The translations under genes were made by a program, and so were the position numbers. A stretch of DNA of 64,000 bases from Isurus oxyrinchus. Its lineage: Eukaryota. Below are positions 1 to 56,169 of the stretch, piece after piece. The stretch lies in contig JANJGN010000008.1 of assembly GCA_026770705.1 (NCBI GenBank), positions 87,978,001-88,042,000 on the forward strand, written 5' to 3'. The first letter of the stretch is position 1, and each line of letters opens with the position of its first letter. The notes beneath the pieces were generated by a model, which saw nothing but the letters and a program-made list of their open reading frames with translations, searched no databases and was not told the DNA's origin.

Positions 1-852
1 ATCTAATTTTGTATAGGATTTGCCTCCAGCTAGCTTTGCATATAAGTTATCTATCCGTGGAATGGGATACTTGTCTAGTTTGGTTGCCTTGTTTACAGTC
101 AATTTATAGTCCCCACAAATGTGTATGGTTTGGTCAGGCTTAACCACTGGAACTATGGGTGTTGCCCATTCTGAGAATTGGACAGGCTGGATGATGCCCA
201 ACTTTTCTAACTGGCACAGTTCTGCAGCCACCTTATCCTTCATTGCATAAGGCACAGGTCTGGCCTTAAAGAAACGTGGTATCGCCTGAGGATCTATATA
301 TATTTTTGCTTGCAAGCCTTTTAACTTCTTTTATTCATCCTGAAATACACTTTCATATTTCCTTTGCAGTTCAGGAACTCTTCCTGTTTTTCAGGTGAAA
401 TATTTCAGACCAGTCAAGCTTGATTTTCTGTAACCAGCCCCAGCTCAGAAGACTGGGTCCTTTTCCTGTCACTATCACTAGAAACTGGGCTGTCTATTAA
501 ACACCGGTACTGTAGCGATGCTCTTTACCTGAATAGACTCTCCAGTGTATGCCTTCAATTTAGTGGTTGTCTGCTCCAGATTTATTGGCTGGGTACCTTC
601 ATTTAGGTATTTAAATGTGTGCTCTCCCACCACTGTCGTTGAGACTCCTGTATCTATCTCCATCATTAGTAGCTTCCCATTAACTTGGATGGTGACAGTG
701 GTAGGTTCAGTTGTTACAGCGCTGACATTATACAGGGAATAGATGCCTGTGCCACCAGCTTCAAGTTCTGTTGTACTTTTCAATTCACTCCTGTTAGTTT
801 GATGCTTTTTGGGCTGTTTCGACTTCACCCTGCGTTACCTTACAACATGACC
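1..852 (-). mobile_element. Ty3/Gypsy LTR retrotransposon: gag 3' end, aspartic protease and start of reverse transcriptase (degenerate); continues at 5548
   Basis: Minus-strand translation gives the protease motif MEIDTGVSTTVV (ORF 478..828). Bases ~1-280 read PVPYAMKDKVAAELCQLEKLGIIQPVQFSEWATPIVPVVKPDQTIHICGDYKLTVNKATKLDKYPIPRIDNLYAKLAGGKSYTKLD, the typical Gypsy RT N-terminus. Stops and frameshifts are present. Confidence 0.92.
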
Positions 853-1403
853 ACCGACTCCCACAGCTACCTCGACTACAGCTCCTCACACCCCGCTTCC
901 TGTAAGGACTCCATCCCATTCTCTCAGTTCCTTCGCCTTCGTCGCATCTGTTCCGATGATGCCACCTTCAAAAACAGTTCCTCTGACATGTCCTCCTTCT
1001 TCCTTAACCGAGGTTTTCCACCCACGGTCGTTGACAGGGCCCTCAACCGTGTCCGGCCCATCTCCCGTGCATCCGCCCTCACGCCTTCTCCTCCCTCCCA
1101 GAAACATGATAGGGTCCCCCTTGTCCTCACTTATCACCCCACCAGCCTCCGCATTCAAAGGATCATCCTCCGCATTTCCGCCAACTCCAGCATGATGCCG
1201 CCACCAAACACATCTTCCCTTCACCCCCCCTATCGGCATTCCATAGGGACCGCTCCCTCCGGGACACCCTGGTCCACTCCTCCATCACCCCCTACTCCTC
1301 AACCCCTTCCTATGGCACCACCCCATGCCCACGCAAAAGATGCAACACCTGCCCCTTCACTTCCTCTCTCCTCACCGTCCAAGGGCCCAAACACTCCTCT
1401 CAA

Positions 1404-1733
1404 GTGAAGCAGCATTTCACTTGCATTTCCCCCAACTTAGTCTACTGCATTCGTTGCTCCCAATGTGGTCTCCTCTACATTGGAGAGACCAAACATAAAC
1501 TGGGTGACTGCTTTGCAGAACACCTGCGGTCTGTCCGCAAGAATGACCCAAACCTCCCTGTCGCTTGCCATTTTAACACTCCACCCTGCTCTCTTGCCCA
1601 CATGTCTGTCCTTGGCTTGCTGCATTGTTCCAGTGAAGCCCAACGCAAACTGGAGGAACAACACCTCATCTTCCGACTAGGCACTTTACAGCCATCCGGA
1701 CTGAATATTGAATTCAACAACTTTAGGTCGTGA
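1404..1733 (+). pseudogene. GIY-YIG endonuclease domain in the upstream pseudo-LTR copy
   Basis: ORF 1404..1733 reads NLVYCIRCSQCGLLYIGETKHKLGDCFAEHLRSVRKNDPNLPVACHFN...EEQHLIFRLGTLQPSGLNIEF, with the PLE-type CCHH residues. Confidence 0.88.
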
Positions 1734-2121
1734 GCTCGCTCCTCCATCCCCAACCCCTTTCTGTTTCCCCCTTCCTTTTTTTTTTCCAATAAATCATATA
1801 GATTTTTCTTTTCCCACCTATTTCCATTATTTTTAAATATCTTAAAATCTTTTATGCTCTCCCCACCCCCATTAGAGCTATACCTTGAGTGCCCTACCAT
1901 CCATTCTTAATTAGCACATTTGTTTAGATAATATCACCAACTTTAACTCCTATGTGTTCTATTGTTGTTGACATCTTTTGATGATCTGCTTCTATTACTG
2001 CTTGTTTGTCCCTACAACCACACCCCCCCCCTCCACTTCTCTCTCTCTCTCTCTCTCTCCACCCCCCCCCGACACACCTTAAACCAGCTTATATTTCAAC
2101 TCTTTCTTGGACTCGAACTCA

Positions 2122-2160
2122 AGTTCTATCGAAGGGTCATGAGGACTCGAAACGTCAACT
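2122..2160 (+). ncRNA. Minimal type I hammerhead ribozyme motif, copy 1 (core mutated to CUAUCGA)
   Basis: AGTT-CTATCGA-A-GGGTC-ATGAG-GACTC-GAAA-C-GTC-AACT: stem I AGTT/AACT, stem II GGGTC/GACTC, palindromic ACGT stem III, GUC site at 2154-2156. Minimal HHRs in PLE pseudo-LTRs are established. Confidence 0.7.
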
Positions 2161-2308
2161 CTTTTCTTCTCCGCCGATGCTGCCAGACCTGCTGAGTTTT
2201 TCCAGGTAATTCTGTTTTTGTTTTGGATTTCCAGCATCCGCAGTTTTTTTGTTTTTATCTTTTTGTTTTTATCTCTGTGTTTAATTGACTGCCACTGCTC
2301 TTCAAGAA

Positions 2309-5055
2309 ATGCCTACCTCCTTGAAGAAGTTCTGTTCTTTTCTGCGACAAGATTTCCGTTCCTCTCTTTTGCCTTGCTCACCTTCATTGCTTTCCATTTC
2401 CCTCCTGGTGTTTGACAAGGTGTTTACTAAAACCCGCTTTCACAGCCATATCTCCTTTCTCAGTGATTGTCTCCGTCTCCGACTTACCCCACGTGGATTT
2501 CAACTGAAATTCCACACCTCGTGTTTCGAACCCACCCAGGATTACAGGTATCTCCGGGACATAAAACGTTTCTCGGACTGCTGTTCCCGTCACATTCTGA
2601 AATCCACATTCAGTGCCATGCGCCGCCATATGAACACACTCGACCTCTCCCTCCAGCAGCATCGCCGTACCCTTTTTCAAAGCTGCGCGTGCCCCCAGTT
2701 TCATTTTATTCTTCGGCTCATCCGACGCCTCAACAAGAAACTTTTTCTCTTTCTCTCAAGTGATAAGGAACGCAAGCTCCAACAACTCATCAACACCAAC
2801 ACCCATCTAGGACCTTCCACCCCTGCCCATCCCTCCGTCCCCACCCCATCTTCCAATCCCAGCCCCAGCCGTGTATTCACTATACTCCCTGACCTTCCCC
2901 TCTCCGATGCTGAACGTTCAGTGCTCAGCAAAGGACTTAGTTTCATACCCTTACGCCCTCACCTCAATGAATTTCGGGCTCGGCATGATGCTGAACTCTT
3001 CTTCTGCCGTCTTCGTCTCCGGGCTCACTTCTTTGGGCAGGAGTCCTCTACCAGTTCAACGGATCCTTTTACCCATCTCCAATATTCTCCCTCTACCTGG
3101 ACCCCTCCCTCTGGATTCTTGCCTTCTCTTGATCTTTTCATTGAGAACTGTCGGCGCGACATTAGTCATCTCAATTTCTCTGCTCCTCTCACCCATTCTA
3201 ACCTGTCTCTGAACTTACTGCACTCCATTCTCTCAGGTCCAACCCTGACATTGTCATCAAACCTGCTGACAAGGGTGTTGCTGTTGTTGTCTGGCGCACT
3301 GACCTCTACCTCGCGGAGGTTGAGCATCAACTCGCAGACACTTCCTCCTACCTCTCCCTGGACCATGACCCGACCACTGAACATCAAGCCATTGTTTCCA
3401 GGACTGTCACTGACCTCATCTCCTCTGGGGATCTTCCTCCCACAGCTTCCAACCTGATAGTCGCCCAACCTCGGACGGCCCGCTTCTATCTCCTACCCAA
3501 AATCCACAAACAGAACTGCCCCAGTAGACCAATCGTCTCAGCTTGCTCCTGCCCCACAGAACTAATTTCTCGTTATCTTGACTCCCTTCTCTCTCCCCTT
3601 GTCCAGTCCCTTCCCACCTACATCCGTGATTCCTCTGACACCTTACGTCACATCAACAATTTCCAGTTCCCTGGCCCCAACCACTTCCTCTTCACCATGG
3701 ACGTCCAATCCCTCTACACCTCCATCCGCCACCAGGATGGTCTGAGGGCCCTTAGCTTCTTCCTCGAACAGAGGCCCGAACAATCCCCATCCACCACTAC
3801 TCTCCTCCGTCTGGCTGAACTTGTTCTCATGCTGAACAATTTCTCTTTCAACTCCTCTCAATTCCTCCAAATAAAAGGTGTGGCTATGGGTACCCGCATG
3901 GGCCCCAGCTATGCCTGTCTCTTTATGGGGTATGTGGAACATTCCTTGTTGCAGTCCTACTCCGGCCCCCTTCCACAACTCTTTCTCCGGTACATCGATG
4001 ATTACTTCGGTGCCGCTTCATGCTCTCGTCGGGACTTGGAAAAATTTATTAATTTTGCTTCCAATCTCCACCCCTCCATCATTTTCACGTGGTCCATCTC
4101 TGACACTTCCCTTCCCTTCCTTGACCTCTCTGTCTCAATCTCCGGTGATAGACTGTCCACCAATATCCATTACAAACCCACCGACTCCCACAGCTACCTC
4201 GACTACAGCTCCTCACACCCCGCTTCCTGTAAGGACTCCATCCCATTCTCTCAGTTCCTTTGCCTCTGCCGCATCTGTTCCGATGATGCCACCTTCAAAA
4301 ACGGTTCCTCTGACATGTCCTCCTTCTTCCTTAACCGAGGTTTTCTACCCACGGTCGTTGACAGGGCCCTCAACTGTGTCCGGCCCATCTCCCATGCATC
4401 CGCCCTCACGTCTTCTCCTCCCTCCTAGAAACATGATAAGGTCCCCCTTGTCCTCACTTATCACCCCACCAGCCTCCGCATTCAAAGGATCATCCTCCGC
4501 CATTTCCGCCAACTCCAGCATGATGCCGCCACCAAACACATCTTCCCTTCACCCCACCCCTATCAGCATTCCATAGGGATCGCTCCCTCCGGGACACCCT
4601 GGTCCACTCCTCCATCACCCCCTACTCCTCAACCCCCTCCTATGGCACCACCCCATGCCCACACAAAAGATGCAACACCTGCCCCTTCACTTCCTCTCTC
4701 CTCACCGTCCAAGGGCCCAAACACTCCTCTCAAGTGAAGCACTTGCATTTCCCCCAACTTAGTCTACTGCATTCGTTGCTCCCAATGTGGTCTCCTCTAC
4801 ATTGGAGAGACCAAATGTAAACTGGGCGACCGCTTTGCAGAACACCTGCGGTCTGTCCGCAAGAATGACCCAAACCTCCCTGTCGCTTGCCATTTTAACA
4901 CTCCACCCTGCTCTCTTGCCCAAATGTCTGTCCTTGGCTTGCTGCATTGTTCCAGTGAAGCCCAACGCAAACTGGAGGAACAACACCTCATCTTCCAACT
5001 AGGCATTTTACAGCCTTCCGGACTGAATGTTGAATTCAACAATTTTAGGTTGTGA
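2309..5055 (+). pseudogene. Penelope-like RT / GIY-YIG polyprotein ORF, disrupted
   Basis: The N-terminal ORF from 2285/2309 frameshifts near 3205-3210 in a CTCT run into the frame running NPDIVIKPADKG...RYIDD (YIDD at 3991-4002). There is a premature TAG at 4426-4428 (CAG in the upstream copy), a 9-bp deletion near 4740 and further frameshifts before the EN stop. Confidence 0.9.
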
Positions 5056-5444
5056 GCTCCCTCCCCCATCCCCACCCCCTTTCTGTTTCCCTCTTCCTTT
5101 TTTTTTCCAATAAATCATATAGATTTTTCTTTTCCCACCTATTTCCATTATTTTTAAATATCTTAAAATCTTTTATGCTCTCCCCACCCCCACTAGAGCT
5201 ATAACTTGAGTGCCCTACCATCCATTCTTAATTAGCACATTCGTTTAGATAATATCACCAACTTTAACTCCTATGTGTTCTATTGTTGTTGACATCTTTT
5301 GATGATCTGCTTCTATCACTGCTTGTTTGTCCCTACAACCACATCCCCCCTCCACTTCTCTCTCTCTCTCTCTCTCCGCGCTCCCCCCCCCCCCACGCAC
5401 CTTAAACCAGCTTATATTTCAACTCTTTCTTGGACTCGAACTCA

Positions 5445-5483
5445 AGTTCTGTCGAAGGGTCATGAGGACTCGAAACGTCAACT
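5445..5483 (+). ncRNA. Minimal type I hammerhead ribozyme motif, copy 2 (core CUGUCGA)
   Basis: AGTT-CTGTCGA-A-GGGTC-ATGAG-GACTC-GAAA-C-GTC-AACT, with the GUC triplet at 5477-5479. It lies at the 3' end of the PLE. Confidence 0.78.
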
Positions 5484-5547
5484 CCTTTCTTCTCCGCCGA
5501 TGCTGCCAGATCTGCTGAGTTTTTCCAGGTAATTCTGTTTTTGTTTT

Positions 5548-6389
5548 TGACCTTTTTTATGGCAGTTATGGCATTCTGTTTCTAATCTGCAGGTGCCTGG
5601 GCCGTGGTCACCCCCACATCTATAACAAATTAACCTTGGAGTCACTGCTGATGTGTTTCTACTAGGCCTTTTCATATTTTTAATAATGGACATTGCCTCT
5701 CACTTTGATACTGTGGGTCTGGTTTTTGTGCCACCCCCAGTGGTAGGTTCCCACTCCACATGAAGAACAGCGCCATGTTGTATACGTTGTAAAGCCTGTG
5801 AGTCTCTCGCAGTATTTTCCATGGTGAGTGCTATTTCCAGGATGCACTTCAAATCAATGTTGATCCTTGCAAGTAAACGGCCCTGAATTGAGAACTCCAC
5901 AAACTAAACGGTCCTGCAGCATATCATTTAGTGTGTCCTCAAAGTCACAGTGTTCTGTCACCTGCTTCAGCTTCACTACATAGGTTGCATTGGACTCTCC
6001 TGTGGCCTTAACTCTGGAATTAAACTGAAACCGCTGCATTATTATGGATGGCTTTGGCTGGAAATGCGTTTTCATGAGATCCACTAATTCATTAAAGGGT
6101 TTAGAATTGGGCATGTTTGGGGCCATCAGGCTGTGAATGAGGTTGAATGTCTTGCCACCACATACACTCAGTTGGATGGCTTTCTGCTTTTCCTCCATGG
6201 TAATTTCATTCACTATGAAATAAAAACCAAGGTGCTCCTCATACTGGCTCCAGTCTCCAATAGTCGTATCGTAAGGATCAATTCTGCCAAAGAGTGGCAT
6301 GACTGGTGAGTAGTCTTTTCTTTTTTCTTTGGATTTAGTGTACTCACATTAGCAAGGCAGCGTGGAGCTATTTTACCCTGGTTGCCAAA
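5548..6389 (-). mobile_element. Gypsy gag (degenerate) with leader and primer-binding site
   Basis: ORF 5854..6300 MPLFGRIDPYD...QRFQFNSR...VKLKQVTEHCDFEDTLNDMLQDRLVCG is Gypsy gag. Zinc knuckles CYRCGGDH and CHNCHKKG lie at ~5550-5630. A PBS-like TGGCAACCAG (minus strand, 6378-6387) sits just inside the LTR. Confidence 0.9.
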
Positions 6390-26319: not shown

Positions 26320-27920
26320 TTTCACAATGGACGTCCAATCCCTCTACACCTCCATCCCCCACCAGGATGGTCTGAGGACTCTTTGACTCTTCTTTGAACA
26401 GAGGCTCAAACAATCCTCATCCTCCACCACTCTCCTCCATCTGGCTGAACTTGTTCTCTCACTGAACAATTTCTCCTTTAACTCATCTCGCTTCGTCCAA
26501 ATAAGTGATGCTGCTATGGGTACCCAAGTGGGCCCCAGTAATCCCTGTCTTCTTGTGGGTTATGTGGAACACTCCTTGTTCCAGTCCTGCTTAGGCCCTC
26601 TTCCACAACTCTTTGTCCGGTACATTGCTGACTGAACCTTTGATGCTTCACGCTCTCGTCTGGTCCTGGAAAAATTTATCACATTTCTTTCCAATTTCCA
26701 CCCCTCTCTCACCTTCACATGGTCCATCTCCAACACTTCCCTACCCTTCCTTGACTTTTCCATTTCTGGTGATAGACTGTCTACCAACATTTATGATAAG
26801 CCCGACTCCCCCAGCTACCTCGATTAGACCTCCTTACACCCTGCTTCCCGTAAGGTCTCCATTCCATTCATCCAGTTTCTCTGCCTCAGTCACACCTGTT
26901 CTGATGATACTACTGTCCACAATGGCGCTTCTGCCATGTCTTCGTTTTTCCTGGGCTGAACTTTCTTCCCAACTGTGGGGGGGAAACAACAGGGCCCTCA
27001 ACCTGTTCCCCTTCCCCTTCCTCCCAGAATCATGATAAGGTTCTCCTTGTCCTCACTTTTCACCCCACCAGCCACCGCATTTAAAGGATCATCCTCCACC
27101 CTTTCTGCTAACTCCAGCATGATGCCTTCACCAAAGACAACTTGCGCTCATCACCCCTGTCTGCGTTCTGTCAGGACTGTTGCCTCCAGGACACCCTGGT
27201 CCACTCCTCTATCACCCCAACATCTCATCGTCTTCCCATGGCACTTTCCCATGCAATCCCTTTACATCCTCTCTCCTCACTGTCCAAGGCCCCAAACACT
27301 CTTTTCTGGTTTGCACTCCTTTCAATTTAGTCTACTGCATTTGCTGCTCACAATACAGTGTCCTCTACATTGAGGAGACTAAATGCAAACTGGGTGACCT
27401 CATTGCAGAACACCTTCGCTCAGCCTGCAAGCATGACCCAGATCTTCCTGTCGTTTGCCATTTCAATTAATCATCTTGCTCTCAGGCTCACATTTCTATC
27501 CTTGGCCTACTACAATGTTCCAGTGAAGCCAAACGCAAACTGGAGGAACAGCACCTCCTCTTCCGATTAGGCACTTTACAGCCTTTTGGACTTAACATTG
27601 AGATGAAGAACTTCAGACCATGAACTCTGCCCTCTATTTTGATACTTTTTGCATTTTTTTCCAACCTCTTCTCCCCACAAAGGCCCATCATTAACTTGTT
27701 CTCATGTTTTGCTTTCAGAGAATGCTTATCCTTGCTCTGCTATTGACATATTCTGTTATCTGACCTTTATGCCACTATTAACATCTTAGCCTTTAACACT
27801 ATCATTACTACTCCCTTTATCTTGTATCCGTGACATCTTTGTCAAATGTCTCCTGAGCTCCCACCTATCCCTGACCTTCTATTTTGCTCCGCCTGCTCCA
27901 CCCCCTCTCTTTAACAGTGC
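26320..27920 (+). mobile_element. Older, degenerate Penelope-like element (RT, GIY-YIG, 3' UTR); tail continues at 29838-29955
   Basis: Colinear with 3691-5400 (ATGGACGTCCAATCCCTCTACACC...; NLVYCICCSQYSVLYIEETKCKL); many stops and deletions. Confidence 0.9.
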
Positions 27921-29837: not shown

Positions 29838-29955
29838 ACATTTATACCACTCTTCAGCTCTGAAGAAGTCATATGGACTTGAAGTGTTATCTCTGTATCT
29901 CTCTCCGCAGATGCTACCAGACCTGCTGATTTTTTCCAGCATTCTGTGTTTTTAT
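29838..29955 (+). ncRNA. PLE terminal region with degenerate hammerhead (canonical CUGAAGA core)
   Basis: CTGAAGA-AGTC-ATATG-GACTT-GAAG-TGTT followed by the PLE tail GATGCTACCAGACCTGCTGA...TTCCAGCATTCTGTGTTTT; GAAA is mutated. Confidence 0.6.
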
Positions 29956-37535: not shown

Positions 37536-38903
37536 AAAAGTGTATCTTTTGCTTCTTCTAACAGGTGAAGGTAGACGTTGCATTCAGAAGATATGCAATA
37601 TGTACACAATTTTCCAGGATGGATCAGCAGCATTTAAGCGAGCCAGGTGGTAGAAAGCTACTTAGTCAGTCTGGAGGAAATAGATTTCTGGACTCTAAAG
37701 GCATCAAGGGGTGTAGGAAGAGAGCAGGAATATGGCATTGAGATAGAGGATCAGCCATGGTCCCTTTGAATGGCGGAGCAGGCTCAAGGAGCTGAATGAC
37801 CTACTCCTGCTCCTATTTTTCTATGTTTTCTATGTAAGAAAATCTATTTTGTTCTTTTTCAAAATTATCTCAAGACAGCCAGTAGACAAACCTCAGTAGG
37901 TTTATTCGGGTAGAACTGCATAATGAATATTTTAGAAAGGGAGAGGCTGTCACTGTAAAAAAATATACACTTGTGTGCATGCGATAATGAGATATTTTCC
38001 TTCAGAAACCTTCAGAAAGCATATTAAGCTGAGCAACAGACGTAGGCGCATCCTTGTGCTGGAATGCTGCTCCATGGATTTCTGTGGCCCAGCAATCTGA
38101 CTCCAGTCACTACAGTTTGCAAATCATGTGGCTGTGTTCATAGTTTTAAACAGGTAAAGACTAAAAATAAATACATGGGTAAAGTTATATATGTTTAAAA
38201 TAAAGGCTGGTTATTTTTGCTATGGAGAGACTTGTGGAATTCACACCCTGGAGTACCATTAGATAAGAATTTGACTTGTTCAGTCATTGTAAATCAGTGG
38301 CCTTGATCAATGGTCTAGCATGGAATAAACACCACTATTGTTATAAAATAACATAATTTCAACTTGCTGTGTCTTAGCAGATCTGTTCGTATCAGAGCAA
38401 TTCTTGGCACTCCCTGTTGTCACGAATTGATAACTTCCAGTTAAGACTGGTAACACTTGGGTAATGCTTCAATTAGTAACATCGAATCATAGCATCTTGC
38501 AGCTCAGGAGGAGATTGGACTATTTCTATTATGGGCAATGGATCTGCATCGCCAGTTTTATGTCCAGGCAGTTGGTTTAAAATACCACCATCACCACCGT
38601 CGCCCTACCCCACAAGGTTCCCCCCCTCCCCCCCACCCCCCAACCACCCAACACCCCCCATCCCCCTCCACCCTTACCCCTCATTACCATGAGCAAAGCT
38701 GTGAAAGAGTCACTGGTAATGTTATTAAACCACAACATCGAACATGCATTTCTGGTCTGTCACACATCAAGTGTCACACTTCACTTTCTGTGACACAGTT
38801 CAAAGGAAAGTAGAGAAAGAGATAAAGGAAATTTCTAAGAACACAAAATACCAGAGTCAAGTTGTCTGCAGTATCTTAATGACCTCTGTACAAACCTAAG
38901 TTG

Positions 38904-39134
38904 AAAACAAAGAAAACTGCGGATGCTGGAAATCTAAAACAAAAACAGAATTACCTGGAAAAACTCAGTAGGTCTGGCAGCATCGGCGGAGGAGAAAAGA
39001 GTTGACGTTTCGAGTCCTCATGACCCTTCGACAGTTCTGTCGAAGGGTCATGAGGACTCGAAACGTCAACTCTTTTCTCCTCCGCCGATGCTGCCAGACC
39101 TACTGAGTTTTTCCAGGTAATTCTGTTTTTGTTT
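38904..39134. mobile_element. Fold-back mini-element derived from the Penelope terminal/hammerhead region, with 14-bp TSD
   Basis: Perfect 98-bp inverted arms 38937-39034 / 39037-39134 with a TT spacer; near-identical to 2126-2223; TCTGTACAAACCTA at 38885-38898 and 39134-39147. Confidence 0.92.
39033..39071 (+). ncRNA. Minimal hammerhead ribozyme motif in the right arm of the fold-back element
   Basis: AGTT-CTGTCGA-A-GGGTC-ATGAG-GACTC-GAAA-C-GTC-AACT, identical to 5445-5483; GUC at 39065-39067. Confidence 0.72.
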
Positions 39135-39825
39135 CTGTACAAACCTAGTTTTGCATAGCAGTGATTAAATCTTAATAGCCTCACCAAGATACATGCATAC
39201 ACACTGTTGCAGAGCAATAATACATCATGCTTCAACCATTATAAAATTATTGTGAACTATGCGATGTGAGTTTGTTAGTAATATGACAAAAAGGTATATC
39301 TAACGTGCATTTCCTGATCATCACCCTTCTCTGTCACACTTCAATGTCTCACTCAAATACATGTATGTATCATACTTAGAAAAAACAATGGCAGCTATTC
39401 TGCCTGGGATCCAGACTGCCTGTAAGCTTTGAGAAAACTTAACAATCATCACTTACGAGGACCTATAGACTGGAAAGTAACCAAATCCTGGCATCGCACA
39501 GTATGTGCCTAACAGTAATTAGAATTTGAATTCTTAATAGGGCACATCTTAGCAGCAGAAAGGTACATTATGGACAAATGGTGGTGTTCCACAAGGATTG
39601 GAGCTGGTGACCGCTTTTGTTTACTATTTATATAAATGCTTTGGACTTGGCATACAATTTTAAAATTTGTGGGTGAGCTTTACAGTTAGTACAGAGGAGG
39701 ACTGCGACAAAATACAGGAAGACATTAATAAATGGGCATGTAATTGGGAAATAAACATCAATTGAGTTATGTGTGAGTAATATATTTTGGTAGGAAGAAT
39801 AAGGAGTCATATTCCTTGAAAATTA

Positions 39826-41125: not shown

Positions 41126-42149
41126 GTAGACCACTAAATCTAGCAACACAAACCATAATAAAAACCAGGAATAGAAATGAAAATCACTGAATGTCCTATA
41201 CCCTATTGTTTGGCTACTCTTGGAGTACTGTGAAAGGTTTTGGTCTCCAAATTATGAGAAGGATTTAGAGGCACTGGTTAAGGTTCATAAAAGTTTTACA
41301 AGAATAATATCTGAACTGACAGTTATACCTATCTGGAAATATTGAACAGACAGCAGTTCTTTCCTTGAGAAAAGAGAAAACTGTGCAATGACTAGATGAA
41401 GGGTTAAAGGGTTTGATAGGGGAGACTAAGAGAAGGTATTTCCACTCGACGGAGACCAGAACCTGGGGTCATAAAGGTAATATAGTCACTCATAAATCCA
41501 ATAGGGAATTCAGAAGAGACTTCTTTACCCTGAGAGTGGTTTGAATTTTTCTTTATTCTTTTATGGGGTGTAGGCATCGCTGCCAAGGCCAGCATTTATT
41601 GCCCATCCCTAATTGCCCTTGAGAAGATGTTGGTGAGCTGCCTTCATGAACTGCAGTCCATGTGGTGTAGGTACACCACAGTGCTGTTAGGGATGGAGTT
41701 CCAGGATTTTGACTCAGCGACAGTGAAGGAATGATGATATATTTCCAAGTCAAGATGGTGTGTGGCTTGGAGGGGAACTTGCAGGTGGTGGTGTTCCCAT
41801 GCATTTGCTGTCCTTGTCCTTCTAGGTGCCAGAGATCGTGGGTTTAGAAGGAGCTGTTGAATGAGCCTTGGTGAGTTGCTGCAGTACATCTTGTGTAGAG
41901 TACACACTGCTGCCACTATAGTGGAGGGAGTGAATGTTGAAGGTGGTGGATGGGGTTCCAATCAAGTGAGCTGTTTTGTCCTGGATGATGTTGAGCTTCT
42001 TGAGTGTAGTTGGAGCTGCACTCGTCCAGGCAAGTGGAGAGTATGATTGATTGTGGAACTCGCTACCAAGAGGAGTAGTTGAGGCAGATGTCATAGATGT
42101 GTTCACGTGAAATCTAGATATGTCATGAAGGAGGAATAAACCAAAGGAA

Positions 42150-42285
42150 TAAAAACAGAAAAAGCTGTAAATACTCAGCCGGTCTGGCAGCATCAATGGA
42201 GACAAAAACAGGAATGTTTGGTTGACTTGAAATATAAATTGTTTCTCTCGCTGCAGATGTCAGACCTACTGAGCATTTCCAACAT
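42150..42285. mobile_element. Older fold-back PLE-derived element; right end displaced to 44428-44475 by a CR1 insertion
   Basis: AAAACAGAA...ATACTCAGCCGGTCTGGCAGCATC is inverted relative to GATGTCAGACCTACTGAGCATTTCCAACAT|TTTCTGTTTTTATTTCTGGTTTTCAGCATC. Confidence 0.7.
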
Positions 42286-47680: not shown

Positions 47681-47728
47681 ATGATGATGTCGGGATATCA
47701 GGGTAAAAAGAACATTCCTCGGATAACG
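47681..47728 (+). CDS. DPYSL2: First coding exon of dihydropyrimidinase-related protein (CRMP) short isoform; DPYSL2 favoured, DPYSL3 not excluded
   Basis: ATG ATG ATG TCG GGA TAT CAG GGT AAA AAG AAC ATT CCT CGG ATA ACG = MMMSGYQGKKNIPRIT, then a phase-0 donor GTATGT (47729-47734). This matches the CRMP2/CRMP4 N-terminus MSYQGKKNIPRIT|SDRLLIKGG, including the exon boundary. The family call is firm. The paralog call rests on my recollection that fish CRMP2 starts MSGYQG. Confidence 0.85.
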
Positions 47729-51959: not shown

Positions 51960-52690
51960 TATTCTAATTTCTAATTTTGAAATTCCAGAAGTTCTCATTT
52001 GCAAGTCCCTCCATGGCTTCACTCCATCCCCCCTCTGCAACCGCCTCCAGCTGTACATCCCAGCTCATTCTATCCCACTCTTATATTGTCCTGCAGCCCT
52101 ACATCCCAGCTCATCTCTGCTTTGATGATGCTTGGTTTCCGGCACGCCTGCTCCCGTCCCATTACTCTGTCCCCTGTTAACCTGGTATTCTTCCATTCTA
52201 CCACCAGTGGAAGACTTGACAGTCATTATATCTCAGCACTGTGCAAAAATAAAAACAAAGAACTGCGGATGCTGGAAATCCAAAACAAAAACAAAAACAA
52301 AAATACCTGAAAAACCTCAGCAGGTCTGGCAGCATCGGTGGAGAAGAGCACAGTTGATGTTTCAAGTCCTCATGACCCTTCAACAGAAATCACCCCTTTC
52401 CTATTTTTACTTAGTTCTGTTGAAGTGTCATGAGGACTCGGAACGTCAGCTGTGCTCTTCTCCACCGATGCTGCCAGACCTGCTGAGTTTTTCCAGGTAT
52501 TTTTGTTTTTGTTTTCATGTCAGCACTGTGCAGTTCTGTTCCAAAATACCACTGCATTGTTAAACCGTCTTTCCCATCTTCTAAAGCCTATTCTAGCAGC
52601 CAATTCTTATCCTATTGCCTGGTCAGTGACTGCACACTCTTTTGAAGTACCTTGGGATATTTGCTATGTTAATGCTGTCTGGGTTCTTTT
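51960..52690 (+). mobile_element. L2 LINE 3' remnant interrupted by the fold-back element
   Basis: CAAGTCCCTCCATGGC...CCTGCAGCCCTACA...CCTTGGGATATTTGCTATGTTAATGCT resembles an L2 3' end; the reverse-orientation relative is at 57015-57400. Confidence 0.6.
52246..52517. mobile_element. Second fold-back PLE/hammerhead mini-element with 13-bp TSD
   Basis: Inverted arms ~52288-52388 / 52415-52515 with about 7 mismatches and a 26-nt spacer; TCAGCACTGTGCA at 52233-52245 and 52520-52532. Confidence 0.9.
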
Positions 52691-55129
52691 ACCGCATCTG
52701 GGAAAAATGGGTGCCTTAAATCATGTGTTTTTAATGGAATTCAAAAAGAATGCTTTCCTGATGTTATGAGGCTTTTTCCCATATTTTTCCCTTCTTCATT
52801 CTCGACTTATTCTAAAGGAAAATCCATATTTGGGGAATGGTTTTATAGACACTGAGTTTTATCCCCCCCACCGATTGTTGACTCACCCAGGCATGATAGC
52901 CCCACTATTTGCATAGCTGCACATCCCAGCAGGAATCTCCCTATAATGATCCGGAGTGGGAACCCTGCTTGATTTCGCTTTCCCCTTCCAAGTCAGTGGT
53001 CCTGAGGCCAACTGTAGCACCCCTAATATCAAATTGGCTAAGGTGGCTACCACTCAGAGACCAGGAATGGAATTTGGGGCCTTCTGGTCTGCCTACCTTT
53101 TTCAGCTCCCCCTATTTGTTCTTATTCTTTCTTGGAAAGTGCTGACTCTCACAGGGCCACCATTCAGAGCGCATCAGCTGACCTTCAGTACCTCACACAA
53201 GTGCCCATTCTGTATCCTTGAGCCCACACAGCAATCCTTGGCAGGTTGTTCTACCTCAGCAGATGCAAAGGCATGCTAGATACCAGCCTTGCTAGACTTC
53301 CAGGCATGTGACCGGATAAAGAACACAAGCTGTAATTCTGAACTATACTTCCTAGGTAGATCCCAAATACTACATAGGTGGTGTTATATTTGACAATGGA
53401 GAAGAAAATGGGCAGAGTGTAAATGGAATGCTGAATTGCTAGTGCCTATTCTGTGCCATAATGCAAGACTAGTTTTGTGTCCGAGAACTATAGCTGATAT
53501 TCTTTCTTCCCTTCTTACCTACATCCTTAGCTCAGGGACATTGAAGCCAATTGGTAACACCACCAATGTTGCCCCGCCCAAGATCAACCAAGCCAACACA
53601 GACCAGATTTAGGATCTACCTGAAACTATGGTTGGGAATTACATCACATGGTTTATTTATCCACGGAGCAAGTTTGGGGTTGGGGGAAGCACTATCCAGA
53701 GGAGTTTTGTTTAAGCTAGTGCACCTTATATGAGACAACAGTGAAGCATGGCAGTGGGCTAAAATTGGGGAATTGTTTGGCAATATGACCACTGTATAGA
53801 ATTGGGGTGGGATTATTTGGGAACTTTGCAGTTTATTTCTTGCTTCTTGTTTATCCTCAGCTTTGGTGTTTCACCAAATACTTGGGAAGGAGATGGTTTG
53901 AGGAAATGTTGCAAAGTCTATCTGTCAATGATGCATGTACCCTGGAGTATAAATTTGTTTTGTACTATTGCCTGTTTGGCACTGCAGCCCACAAGGAAAT
54001 TATGTGCCTCTGATTCTCAGCATACAAAGTGCAGGAGGAGGACCGCTTTGTATGTACACATCTGAGGTGGCTGGACAGTACATGGGCTTCCAATTGGAGC
54101 TGTGCAAGTAAGGTTGGGGCAGAAGTTAATGGAAGGAGATCATGATGTTGGATAAATGCGGGGGAGAGAAGATGTTAAGTCCATCCTACTTTGTCCATCC
54201 AAGTGTACCTAGAGTATTCCATCATAACTTCCAGCTGGTGCTTAGTGTTCCAGGATTTTTGTCTCTTACCCAACATCCCGTTAATTTTTTATCGATTGCT
54301 TGTAGATCTTGACATATTGTTCTCTGTACATTGGCCCTATTAAAGGATCTTGCTGACTTTCTGGAGGTAATGCCAGTCTTTCTAACAGGGTTGAGATCAC
54401 TAACACTGACAGTAAACGGCTTGGCATCTGGGATTATTTTGTGTGCAATGTGGAAATTGGCTTGGGCTCCAAATTTCCATATGGTAGGACTGATGAAGGA
54501 TGGATTGCTTTAGACTGGTTAGGATTGTCACAAACTTCAGTACTTTCAACATGCATAACAAGGGCATGTATGCACAAGGACTTAATTAGAACAGTAACGA
54601 CCTTCTAATTAAGTCTTCCAAAGATGGTGTGTAAATTGTCCTGCTCAGTTTGGGCCTTTAATTATTCTGTTTACATCTGTATTTTTTTCCACTTTCATTT
54701 CCAATACCTTTTCAATACTTGGATGTACAAAGTCTTCCTTGTCAGCCTGTCTCCCTGCTTCAATAATGTATTACTTTGTGTGGGGCACAACCAAAATTTA
54801 TCGGTGCTTACCCTCATTATCGCATCTGATTCCTCTCAAGCATGGGCATGCTGCCCATTCGTGGTTGGAAACTCTGACGTATTGCCTCAGTGACTAAGTC
54901 TCTTTTTATATGCGTGTTCCTTTCAGAAAAGATGACTCCTGACAAGCATGGATGGGGGACACATAGTGGAACTGCAATAGGGCAGGGCAACAGGGCATGA
55001 TTTCACTACCAGAGGGACTTATAGTTTAGTGTCTTTTGATATGTAGACTGGAATTAGCCCCTAATGCCGATGGGATCTTCCGTTCCCGCCGACGTGTACG
55101 GAGATTTCAATGGCTCACCGGTCCTGTCA

Positions 55130-55378
55130 CGGTGGGGTGGGGGGGGTGGTGTGTGGGGGGGATAGGGGGTGGTGGGGGGGATAGGGTGTGGGGGGGATAG
55201 GGGGTGGTGGGGGGGATAGGGGGTGTGGGGGTGGGGTGGTGGGGGGAATAGGGGGTGTGGGGTTGGGGTGGTGGGGGGGTTAGGGGGTGGGGGGGTGGTG
55301 GAGGGGATAGGGGATGGGGGGGGTGGGGGTGGGGTGGTGGGGGGGATAGGGGGTTGTGGGGGGGGAGGGTGTGGGGCT
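55130..55378 (+). repeat. G-rich tandem array (GGGGGTGGTGGGGGGGATAG-like units) inside a small MITE-like element (~55047-55393)
   Basis: About 250 nt almost devoid of C, with many G4-G8 runs; weak inverted ends GACTGGAATT / GATTGCAGCC. Confidence 0.85.
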
Positions 55379-56169
55379 GGAAGATTGCAGCCTTGACAAC
55401 CTGGGCTTCAAAGCTCAATTTGCATTTCTATATGTTTTTTATTTCCTGGTTTAGTGGGTTTGTGGGCCCGGTGGGTTGGAAAGGATGGCATTGGCCTCGA
55501 TGCATTGTACTCGCACCAAGATTTGGTAGTTTCAATGACTTGTGAGACAGGGAAATTAATGAAACCTCAATTTATATGCCACTCTCTGGGCCCCATACAA
55601 CTGTGTGACACCCTGAACACCCCCGATTTAAGTACATCTTGATGTCTAGAATTCAGTGCGATGGAAGTGGCTGTGACTTTGAGAGGAAAATGGAGTGCAG
55701 GGCAGTGGAATGTGATTCCACAGTCCTTCACTCAATTATGCCCAGAAATCCAGTGTTGCTCATTAAACTACTGTTTCAAATATATTGAGGTTTACAGCAA
55801 CCTTGTAAGTGGTTCTTCCTGGATGGTGTCAGATTTCATGAGCCTCTGTGCAAACTGCATGTCTTGCCATCTCTAACTTTAGAATAGAACTGTGCATCCA
55901 TTTGTAGCCTACCTTCCCCTTCACCTGATCCCTTCAGGAGACCTATTCCTCAGGTACACTTGGCCCTCTGTTCTGATCCTGAACCCATTCCCCAGACCTA
56001 GCCATGAGATGTCAAGTCAGGATTCAAAGAGATCTTTCTACTATTTTTTTTTAACCTTTGAGTGAGAAAAAATGGGAAAGAGTGTGCCAGTGGAGAACAT
56101 GATCTGAAGGCACTGTTACACCCATCACCACACAGTAAGTGAAGGAGGCCTGTTAAATTAGAATGATCA

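What the first reader, a model, noticed from the sequence alone, without database searches (positions are those of the whole stretch)
52233..52532. Independent second fold-back hammerhead element inside the CRMP/DPYSL first intron
Seen: same architecture as 38904-39134 (left arm extended by AACTGCGGATGCTGGAAATC, right arm stopping at TTTTGTTTT), but a different subfamily (GAAGAGCACAG variant), a 26-nt spacer of pseudo-LTR-like sequence, about 7 arm mismatches and its own 13-bp TSD. The sense-strand hammerhead has GAAA>GGAA and a stem II change; the antisense one keeps GAAA but has CATC at the cleavage motif. Inference: the same geometry in a different subfamily means the mechanism is general, and arm divergence offers an internal clock like LTR dating. 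A ~100-bp dsRNA stem in a neuronal pre-mRNA could be an ADAR or Dicer substrate.
Basis: partly seen in the sequence, partly recalled or inferred. Interest (0 to 1): 0.7.

Follow-up and report, generated by a model that had tools for sequence, protein, structure and literature searches.

The report
Back-to-back Penelope retrotransposon stub in intron
This DNA hairpin is one of many thousands of dead stubs of a Penelope-type jumping gene, two short copies of the element's end joined back to back inside a neuronal gene's first intron, likely made when both cut ends of the target DNA started copying the same RNA.

Summary
Real but ordinary. The 101-bp arms (7 mismatches), 26-nt spacer, one-sided extension and 13-bp TSD are there, in intron 1 of a + strand CRMP/DPYSL gene. 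Both arms are the 3' end (pseudo-LTR with minimal hammerhead) of a Penelope-like element; a near-full copy lies at 851-5549, and one 29-mer of the arm has 131,104 exact matches. Inverted pLTR + one-sided tail + TSD is published. The junction is unique in the genome, so this is a one-off insertion. The hammerhead core is non-canonical across the family (U for A6 in 190 of 248 arms), and no sense/antisense decay bias was found. Editing was not testable. The population of copies is informative: 78 of 80 TSD-bounded pairs have exactly one tail and none has two; arm lengths correlate (rho 0.89); 40 of 160 short arms end at one Inr-like base. This fits priming from both nicked strands on one RNA, then end-joining of the two cDNAs. 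The scan has reported this architecture many times in this genome, and the two-ended priming reading in other genomes.

The parts
52233..52245 (.). Left target-site duplication (13 bp)
   Evidence: Exact repeat at 52520-52532; TSD mode is 14 bp (34 of 80 pairs)
52246..52287 (-). PLE tail (about 35 nt) plus one extra TTTTTG unit; likely the outer reverse-transcription start site
   Evidence: Aligns to the tail that follows the upstream pLTR of the window PLE at about 2225-2258; in Anolis Poseidon the tail is the interval between two RT start sites (PMC11167929)
52288..52388 (-). Left arm: PLE 3' end with minimal type I hammerhead (52352-52388); U6 core, CATC at the cleavage motif, helix I clipped at the junction
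   Evidence: two of its four private changes are CpG transitions
52389..52414 (+). Spacer: upstream pLTR sequence of the right arm, with 0-1 nt of junction filler or microhomology; contains the Inr-like TTAGTT (A at 52413)
   Evidence: The same sequence precedes the hammerhead in other copies; junction 22-mer occurs once in the genome
52415..52515 (+). Right arm: PLE 3' end without tail; minimal hammerhead 52413-52451 with U6 core, GAAA>GGAA, stem II G>T, helix I A>G; likely the inner RT start site
52516..52532 (.). Four filler bases and right TSD (52520-52532)
851..5549 (+). Near-full-length, frameshifted partial-tandem PLE of the same family (younger subfamily): upstream pLTR + tail, RT + GIY-YIG ORF with CX4CX2C linker, terminal pLTR without tail
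   Evidence: Direct repeats 3.3 kb apart; RVT_1 E=7.9e-08; GIY-YIG weak, E=0.047, below cut-off; motifs in the ORF list
38885..39147 (.). Sister fold-back, younger subfamily: 98/98 identical arms, 14-bp TSD; its central 28-mer recurs 1,092 times
47681..47728 (+). Exon 1 coding part of the CRMP/DPYSL-family host gene; intron 1 runs to 67 bp past the window end
   Evidence: paralog not determined

Best explanation
This is a dead, one-off insertion of two 3'-end stubs of an abundant Penelope-like retrotransposon, joined head to head and bounded by a 13-bp duplication, likely made when the element's enzyme nicked both DNA strands and primed reverse transcription from both nicks on the same RNA. 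Shown: identity of the arms, tail on one side only, TSD, unique junction, neutral-looking decay. Inferred steps: (1) the RT/GIY-YIG protein makes two nicks about 14 bp apart; (2) one 3'-OH starts at the inner U-rich site (no tail) and the other at the outer site about 35 nt downstream (tail); (3) both cDNAs run towards the RNA's 5' end and often stop at the A of YYAGTT, the likely transcription start, 29-32 nt below a TATA-like TTATATTT; here one arm stopped at +2 and the other at about -23, so this template began further upstream; (4) the two same-sense cDNA ends are trimmed and joined by microhomology end-joining. The hammerheads are passengers, probably weak or inactive (family-wide U6). 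The intronic hairpin may be edited by ADAR like any inverted repeat, with no sign of a host function.
For: Arms align to the ends of the window PLE. Of 80 TSD-verified head-to-head pairs, 78 are tail/no-tail, 1 none/none, 1 none/partial and 0 tail/tail (p about 5e-21 against independent choice). Ten further neighbours without a TSD call and 20 of 20 same-junction copies also have exactly one tail. In 73 clean pairs the two arm lengths account for the whole interior and correlate, rho 0.89 (0.70 in 30 long pairs). Either arm can be longer: tail arm 9, no-tail arm 14, within 25 nt 7. That excludes a simple fold-back from one fixed first arm. The recurring sister junction has the tail on the trimmed arm in 12 and on the full arm in 8 of 20; as self-priming it would need a 2-bp stem with a 2-nt loop. 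5' ends: 40 of 160 at -1..+1 (p 1e-23), 2 of 160 at the hammerhead cut. Arms share 62 derived variants against 307 differences over 8,937 sites in 59 pairs. In vitro, a PLE protein nicks and extends both strands, starts at two sites bounding the tail, is predicted to be a dimer and uses uncleaved RNA (PMC11167929).
Against: In PMC11167929 the start sites did not differ between top and bottom strands, which does not by itself predict strict one-tail pairing. Junction sequence cannot tell intermolecular joining from fold-back when the loop is long. Two of 27 top-hit loci have arms of different subfamilies (L017, L030), so one RNA is not obligatory. The transcription start is inferred from motif spacing and end pile-up only; D. 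virilis Penelope has a TATA-less internal promoter (PMC2377424). Solo arms with a TSD also exist (15 found), so two-ended priming is not the only outcome. The sample is mostly contigs C1-C3 and is anchored on conserved motifs.
Confidence: 0.8

Rival explanations
1. Self-priming (snap-back): one cDNA, or an antisense RNA template, folds back and copies itself; the endonuclease then resolves the hairpin and leaves the tail on one side.
For: Proposed in PMC3846280 (self-priming on an antisense template) and PMC8557442 (tail from EN-mediated resolution). It explains correlated lengths, shared variants and the single tail.
Against: Here the no-tail arm extends 25 nt further 5' while the other arm holds the tail, so neither arm can template the other fully. 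Either arm can be longer, by up to 1.7 kb. The common sister junction would need a 2-nt loop and occurs with the tail on either arm. Mixed-subfamily pairs exist.
Confidence: 0.12
2. A non-autonomous palindromic mini-element (retrozyme- or MITE-like) that is transcribed and moved as a unit.
For: The sister's junction recurs 1,092 times; 42 of 80 pairs are short.
Against: This element's junction is unique (1 match). Junctions differ copy to copy. Same-junction copies carry the tail on either arm (12:8). Sizes run continuously from about 130 bp to 4 kb. No tandem array. A self-pairing RNA would bury the hammerhead and the priming sites.
Confidence: 0.05
3. An exapted regulatory hairpin (functional editing site, small-RNA precursor or ribozyme switch) in a neuronal gene.
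For: Very stable duplex on the transcribed strand (94 Watson-Crick + 3 G-U pairs of 101). Contigs of public runs about 2% different in the flank span the left junction (3 runs) and the right junction (2 runs), so the insertion is not private to this assembly. Penelope repeats in lizard and palindromic repeats in frog are heavily edited (PMC5625713).
Against: Divergence of 7% is within its subfamily's range (0-13.8%, mean 5.4%). No compensatory changes. Roughly 26,000 similar short hairpins by extrapolation (21 elements per 105 exact arms in C1:1-2.9 Mb). Rfam hits are generic hairpin miRNA models far below gathering score. No orientation bias in CRMP genes.
Confidence: 0.03

Closest known systems
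Inverted-pLTR insertions of EN+ Penelope-like elements (Adineta Pen2a/Pen2, D. virilis Penelope; PMC3846280, PMC8557442, PMC2377424; passages read)
   Same: Head-to-head 5'-truncated copies, a 30-40 nt tail at one end, a TSD and partial-tandem full copies.
   Different: Minimal size (both arms near 100 nt, no ORF), TSD mode 14 rather than the 8-10 bp quoted for Adineta, very high copy number, and a pile-up of 5' ends at one base.
Minimal hammerheads of metazoan PLE pLTRs (PMC4209133; first half of the text read)
   Same: Type I minimal motif with an extra base after A9, G10.1-C11.1, palindromic ACGU in place of helix III; 'dual min-HHRs 100-700 bp apart on opposite strands' are already noted there.
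   Different: Position 6 is U, not A, in the two dominant subfamilies; canonical cores are a minority (14 of 248). This copy has further lesions in both motifs.
Anolis Poseidon (PAc) in vitro mechanism (PMC11167929; main text read)
   Same: Two internal RT start sites bounding the tail, both strands nicked and extended, uncleaved RNA used.
   Different: The paper does not report that the two sites are used one per strand in an insertion. The window element has a CX4CX2C linker, pointing to Neptune/Nematis rather than Poseidon.
L1 twin priming (mechanism recalled; search listing only)
   Same: Second-strand nick primes a second cDNA; inversion joined by microhomology; TSD.
   Different: In L1 the two cDNAs copy different parts of the RNA; here both copy the same part, giving a palindrome.
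Non-LTR retrozymes (bioRxiv 10.64898/2026.07.22.740005; abstract and one term search seen)
   Same: Hammerhead-bearing non-coding derivatives of PLE pLTRs.
   Different: Retrozymes are tandem and depleted from introns; this is inverted, single, intronic and not amplified as a unit.

Membership tests
EN+ PLE insertion unit | Ends derive from the pLTR of an element with RT and C-terminal GIY-YIG | tested here: met
   Arms align at 89-90% to the window PLE end; RVT_1 passes cut-off; GIY-YIG weak but YIGET and CCHH-like residues are visible
EN+ PLE insertion unit | Inverted 5'-truncated copy, 30-40 nt tail at one end, TSD | tested here: met
Neptune/Nematis clade | CX2-5CxxC Zn-finger-like linker before GIY-YIG (PMC8557442) | tested here: met
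   CPRKRCNTC in ORF 1113-1733, definition
Neptune/Nematis clade | Placement in the RT phylogeny | not tested
   No tree was built
Minimal type I hammerhead (active) | Core C3 U4 G5 A6 N7 G8 A9 ... G12 A13 A14 A15.1 ... U16.1 H17 | tested here: not met
   Both copies have U6; the sense copy also has A13G. A6 changes lower activity (A6C, PMC3088659); A6U itself was not found assayed
Minimal type I hammerhead (active) | Self-cleavage as a dimer or with protein help | not testable with these tools
   Indirect only: 2 of 160 short arms end at the cut site
Non-LTR retrozyme | Head-to-tail tandem monomers with a hammerhead, amplified as a unit | tested here: not met
   Inverted, single, unique junction
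MITE / palindromic non-autonomous element | Many copies with the same internal sequence, ends and fixed short TSD | tested here: not met
   Junction unique; junctions and ends variable; TSD calls range 9-20
ADAR/Dicer substrate | Long duplex on the transcribed strand | tested here: met
   gene on the + strand
ADAR/Dicer substrate | A-to-G clusters or 21-23 nt reads mapped uniquely to this locus | not testable with these tools
   Only assembled contigs were served, and RNA contigs over the arms come from the repeat family

The most novel reading that the evidence does not exclude
These stubs are double strong-stop products of the PLE cycle. One protein dimer primes both nicks on a single unspliced RNA at two fixed sites, and both cDNAs run off its capped 5' end at a TATA/Inr promoter placed exactly at the hammerhead's first base. 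Both priming sites would lie inside a roughly 100-nt 5'-UTR intron (GT at window 2206, AG at about 2305, just before the ATG), so only unspliced RNA could be copied. That would explain the tail, the inverted pLTRs and PLE intron retention with one rule.
Probability: 0.3. Interest if true: 0.6.

Novelty: new member of a known kind. Interest (0 to 1): 0.2.

Why it matters
The locus itself matters little: it is one neutral stub among tens of thousands. The family matters as a fossil record of a transposition mechanism that the cited papers call unresolved. Strict one-tail pairing, correlated arm lengths and the single-base end peak give concrete predictions for the existing in vitro PLE system. 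Such stubs may also be a large source of intronic dsRNA in this genome, which is testable with brain RNA-seq.

Tried and rejected
ADAR signature in genomic copies: an apparent A>G excess (51/4323 vs T>C 37/6204) vanished after removing divergent arms and motif-ascertained columns (10/2283 vs 13/3047) and in arm-versus-arm differences (33/3806 vs 42/6268, p 0.28). A G>A excess (40/1822 vs 15/2389) also vanished arm-versus-arm (p 0.73), so there is no cDNA-deamination signal. An A>C versus T>G difference (13 vs 6, p 0.008, one of five comparisons) was left unexplained. Arms ending at the hammerhead cut: rejected (2 of 160). A first TSD-versus-arm comparison (0.9% vs 3.5%) was biased by TSD ascertainment and was replaced. 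The TSD run had a faulty 3'-end rule and was superseded. Hairpin-driven homogenisation: inconsistent (short vs long pairs 3.6% vs 5.1% in one subfamily, 7.5% vs 4.7% in the other). Rfam: no hammerhead model hit, only sub-threshold miRNA hairpins. Expression: no RNA holder listed; RNA? contigs of X1 covered family sequence and 159 nt of flank only; this is no evidence either way. The putative 5'-UTR intron has no read support and stays untested; no spliced copy was seen among fetched loci. The blastp comparison was uninformative. Literature searches listed no paper describing one-site-per-strand pairing or a strong-stop peak in PLEs; subscription papers such as Arkhipova 2006 and all supplements were not seen and may hold this.

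Full report
Observation. The element is as described. Arms 52288-52388 and 52415-52515 are 101 bp with 7 mismatches and a 26-nt spacer. A 13-bp TSD lies at 52233-52245 and 52520-52532. The RNA folds at -185.5 kcal/mol, z = -23. The host gene is a CRMP/DPYSL-family gene on the + strand: exon 1 at about 47681-47728, exon 2 68 bp past the window end, and further D-hydantoinase-family exons downstream. The peptide motifs used to find the exons and the family name are recalled; the paralog was not determined. The sister at 38.9 kb lies upstream of this exon 1.

Identity. Both arms align to the 3' end of a partial-tandem retroelement at 851-5549. It has an RT domain, a weak GIY-YIG hit and a CX4CX2C linker, which fits a Neptune/Nematis-type Penelope-like element by the definition in PMC8557442; no tree was built. 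The left extension is the PLE tail. The spacer is the sequence that normally precedes the hammerhead in this subfamily. One 29-mer of the arm has 131,104 exact matches in a 4.98-Gb genome. That the host is a shark is my recall of this repeat and the wording of earlier notes, not a tool result. The architecture is published: inverted pLTR, one-sided tail and TSD (PMC3846280; PMC8557442; PMC2377424; passages read), and dual minimal hammerheads on opposite strands (PMC4209133; parts 1-2 of 4 read).

Sample. I annotated 332 arms from four sources: the first 100 listed places (C1, 0-2.9 Mb), all but the last two of the 100 listed places of a subfamily pattern with 501 matches, 340 kb of seven CRMP-family genes, and the window. 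The 30 top-hit loci were kept apart because the query biased them. Many singly anchored loci had only 1.5 kb of flank, so long pairs are undercounted.

Pairing. Eighty head-to-head pairs have a TSD (mode 14 bp, 34 of 80). Of these, 78 have exactly one tail, one has none, one has a partial tail and none has two. Tails are present on 164 of 332 arms overall, so independent choice would give about 20 tail/tail pairs. Ten more close neighbours without a TSD call, and 20 of 20 copies with the sister's junction, also have one tail. In 73 clean pairs the two arms account for the whole interior and their lengths correlate (rho 0.89; 0.70 in the 30 pairs over 200 bp). The tail arm is longer in 9, the no-tail arm in 14, and 7 are within 25 nt. 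Arms of a pair share subfamily markers in nearly all cases: 64 of 80 have both arms in the same one of the two main subfamilies, one pair mixes them, and the rest are minor, truncated or singly mutated types. They share 62 derived variants against 307 differences. Two of 27 scorable top-hit loci are clear mixed pairs.

5' ends. Of 332 arms, 126 run past the TATA-like block, 160 were mapped between -44 and +45, and 46 were dropped for poor score, range or missing flank. Forty of the 160 end at -1..+1 of the A in YYAGTT, and 2 end at the hammerhead cut site. Palindromic junctions blur single ends by a few bases. A TATATTT motif sits 29, 30 or 32 nt upstream in 110 of 126 long arms, although the sequence between differs by subfamily. 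I read this as the transcription start; that is inference. In this finding the arms end at about +2 and -23, and the junction 22-mer occurs once in the genome. The sister's junction, a 2-nt overlap at +1, occurs 1,092 times, with the tail on the trimmed arm in 12 and on the full arm in 8 of 20. This symmetry fits repeated joining of two run-off cDNAs better than spread of one master.

Mechanism. The best fit is two nicks about 14 bp apart, one RT start per strand at the two sites that bound the tail, usually on the same RNA, followed by end-joining of the two cDNAs. The in vitro work on Anolis Poseidon supplies both-strand nicking and extension, two start sites, a predicted dimer and use of uncleaved RNA, but it saw no strand difference in start site (PMC11167929; parts 1-2 of 4 read). 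Simple snap-back fails for this copy because each arm holds sequence the other lacks; hybrids of two-ended priming and fold-back are not excluded.

Hammerheads. The core reads CTGTYGA in 190 of 248 scorable arms and canonical CTGA(A/T)GA in 14, so the A6U change predates this insertion. A6C lowers activity (PMC3088659, passages); I found no assay of A6U. Non-CpG substitution is the same in core and non-core positions (22/850 vs 109/4154 in tail arms; 26/934 vs 125/4554 in no-tail arms). In CRMP-family genes there are 16 sense and 16 antisense arms, and GAAA is intact in 13 of 14 and 12 of 14 readable ones. This is a small test, but it gives no support to sense-biased loss.

Clock. Mean arm divergence is 3.5% (105/2960, 38 pairs) in the sister's subfamily and 5.4% (108/1987, 25 pairs) in this one, close to TSD mismatch rates of 3.1% and 4.9% (true pairs had at most 2 mismatches in 85 of 90, shuffled pairs in 1 of 265). 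The clock therefore orders subfamilies, but one copy gives a wide interval (2.8-13.8%), and the per-pair correlation is not significant. Contigs from three public runs about 2% different in the flank run into the left junction, and two into the right, so the insertion is not recent.

Editing. The duplex is a plausible ADAR substrate, and editing of Penelope and palindromic repeats is documented in other vertebrates (PMC5625713, passages). It could not be tested here. A rough extrapolation from C1:1-2.9 Mb gives about 26,000 such short hairpins, so editing would not single out this locus.

Verdict. A real, ordinary PLE stub. Earlier notes of this scan reached the same filing for many copies in this genome and the two-ended priming reading in other genomes; I consulted them after forming my reading and tested the claims here. 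What this analysis adds is the promoter-like geometry at the end peak, the symmetric recurring junction, the clock check and the untested intron idea. Supplements and subscription papers were not seen and may bear on novelty.

Noticed in passing
window 2206-2305: Possible 5'-UTR intron of the PLE: CAG|GTAATT after the hammerhead, then U-rich tracts, a branch-like TTAAT/TTGAC and CTCTTCAAG just before the first ATG; similar in six tandem junctions of both subfamilies. It would span both RT start sites; Chlamys-3 has a 5'-UTR intron across the pLTR/body boundary (PMC8557442).
   Followed up: partly
window 2173-2238: The tail (CAGCAUC) pairs with the upstream GAUGCUG, enclosing the inner U-rich start site in a stem-loop in both MFE and centroid folds; the overall z-score is not significant (0.57).
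   Followed up: partly
window 851-5549: Near-full-length, frameshifted partial-tandem PLE, pLTR copies 93-97% identical; a related truncated copy lies at about 26321-27607.
   Followed up: partly
window 29860-29953 and 42138-42202: Older, more diverged PLE ends; the first keeps a canonical CTGAAGA hammerhead core.
   Followed up: no
L051, L075, L188 (C1:500882, C1:1449357, C3:190720451): Short hammerhead arms joined to ORF-start or internal PLE sequence, suggesting template jumps after a strong stop.
   Followed up: no
L069 (C1:1177596-1177905): About 190 nt of non-PLE sequence captured between two arms that both end at -1/0, inside one 14-bp TSD.
   Followed up: no
L016 and L018 (C747 and C31): Near-identical element and flanks on two contigs: segmental duplication or unplaced haplotype.
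   Followed up: no
G000:C5:159519153-159519290: A D-hydantoinase-family exon match on the strand opposite to the rest of that gene, apparently an inverted duplicate of the exon at C5:159524555.
   Followed up: no
window 55124-55386: G-rich tandem repeat (GGGGGATAGGGGGT-like units) in the same intron, able in principle to form G-quadruplexes.
   Followed up: no
window 5854-6348: 164-aa open frame resembling a gag-like LTR-retrotransposon fragment (resemblance recalled, not searched).
   Followed up: no
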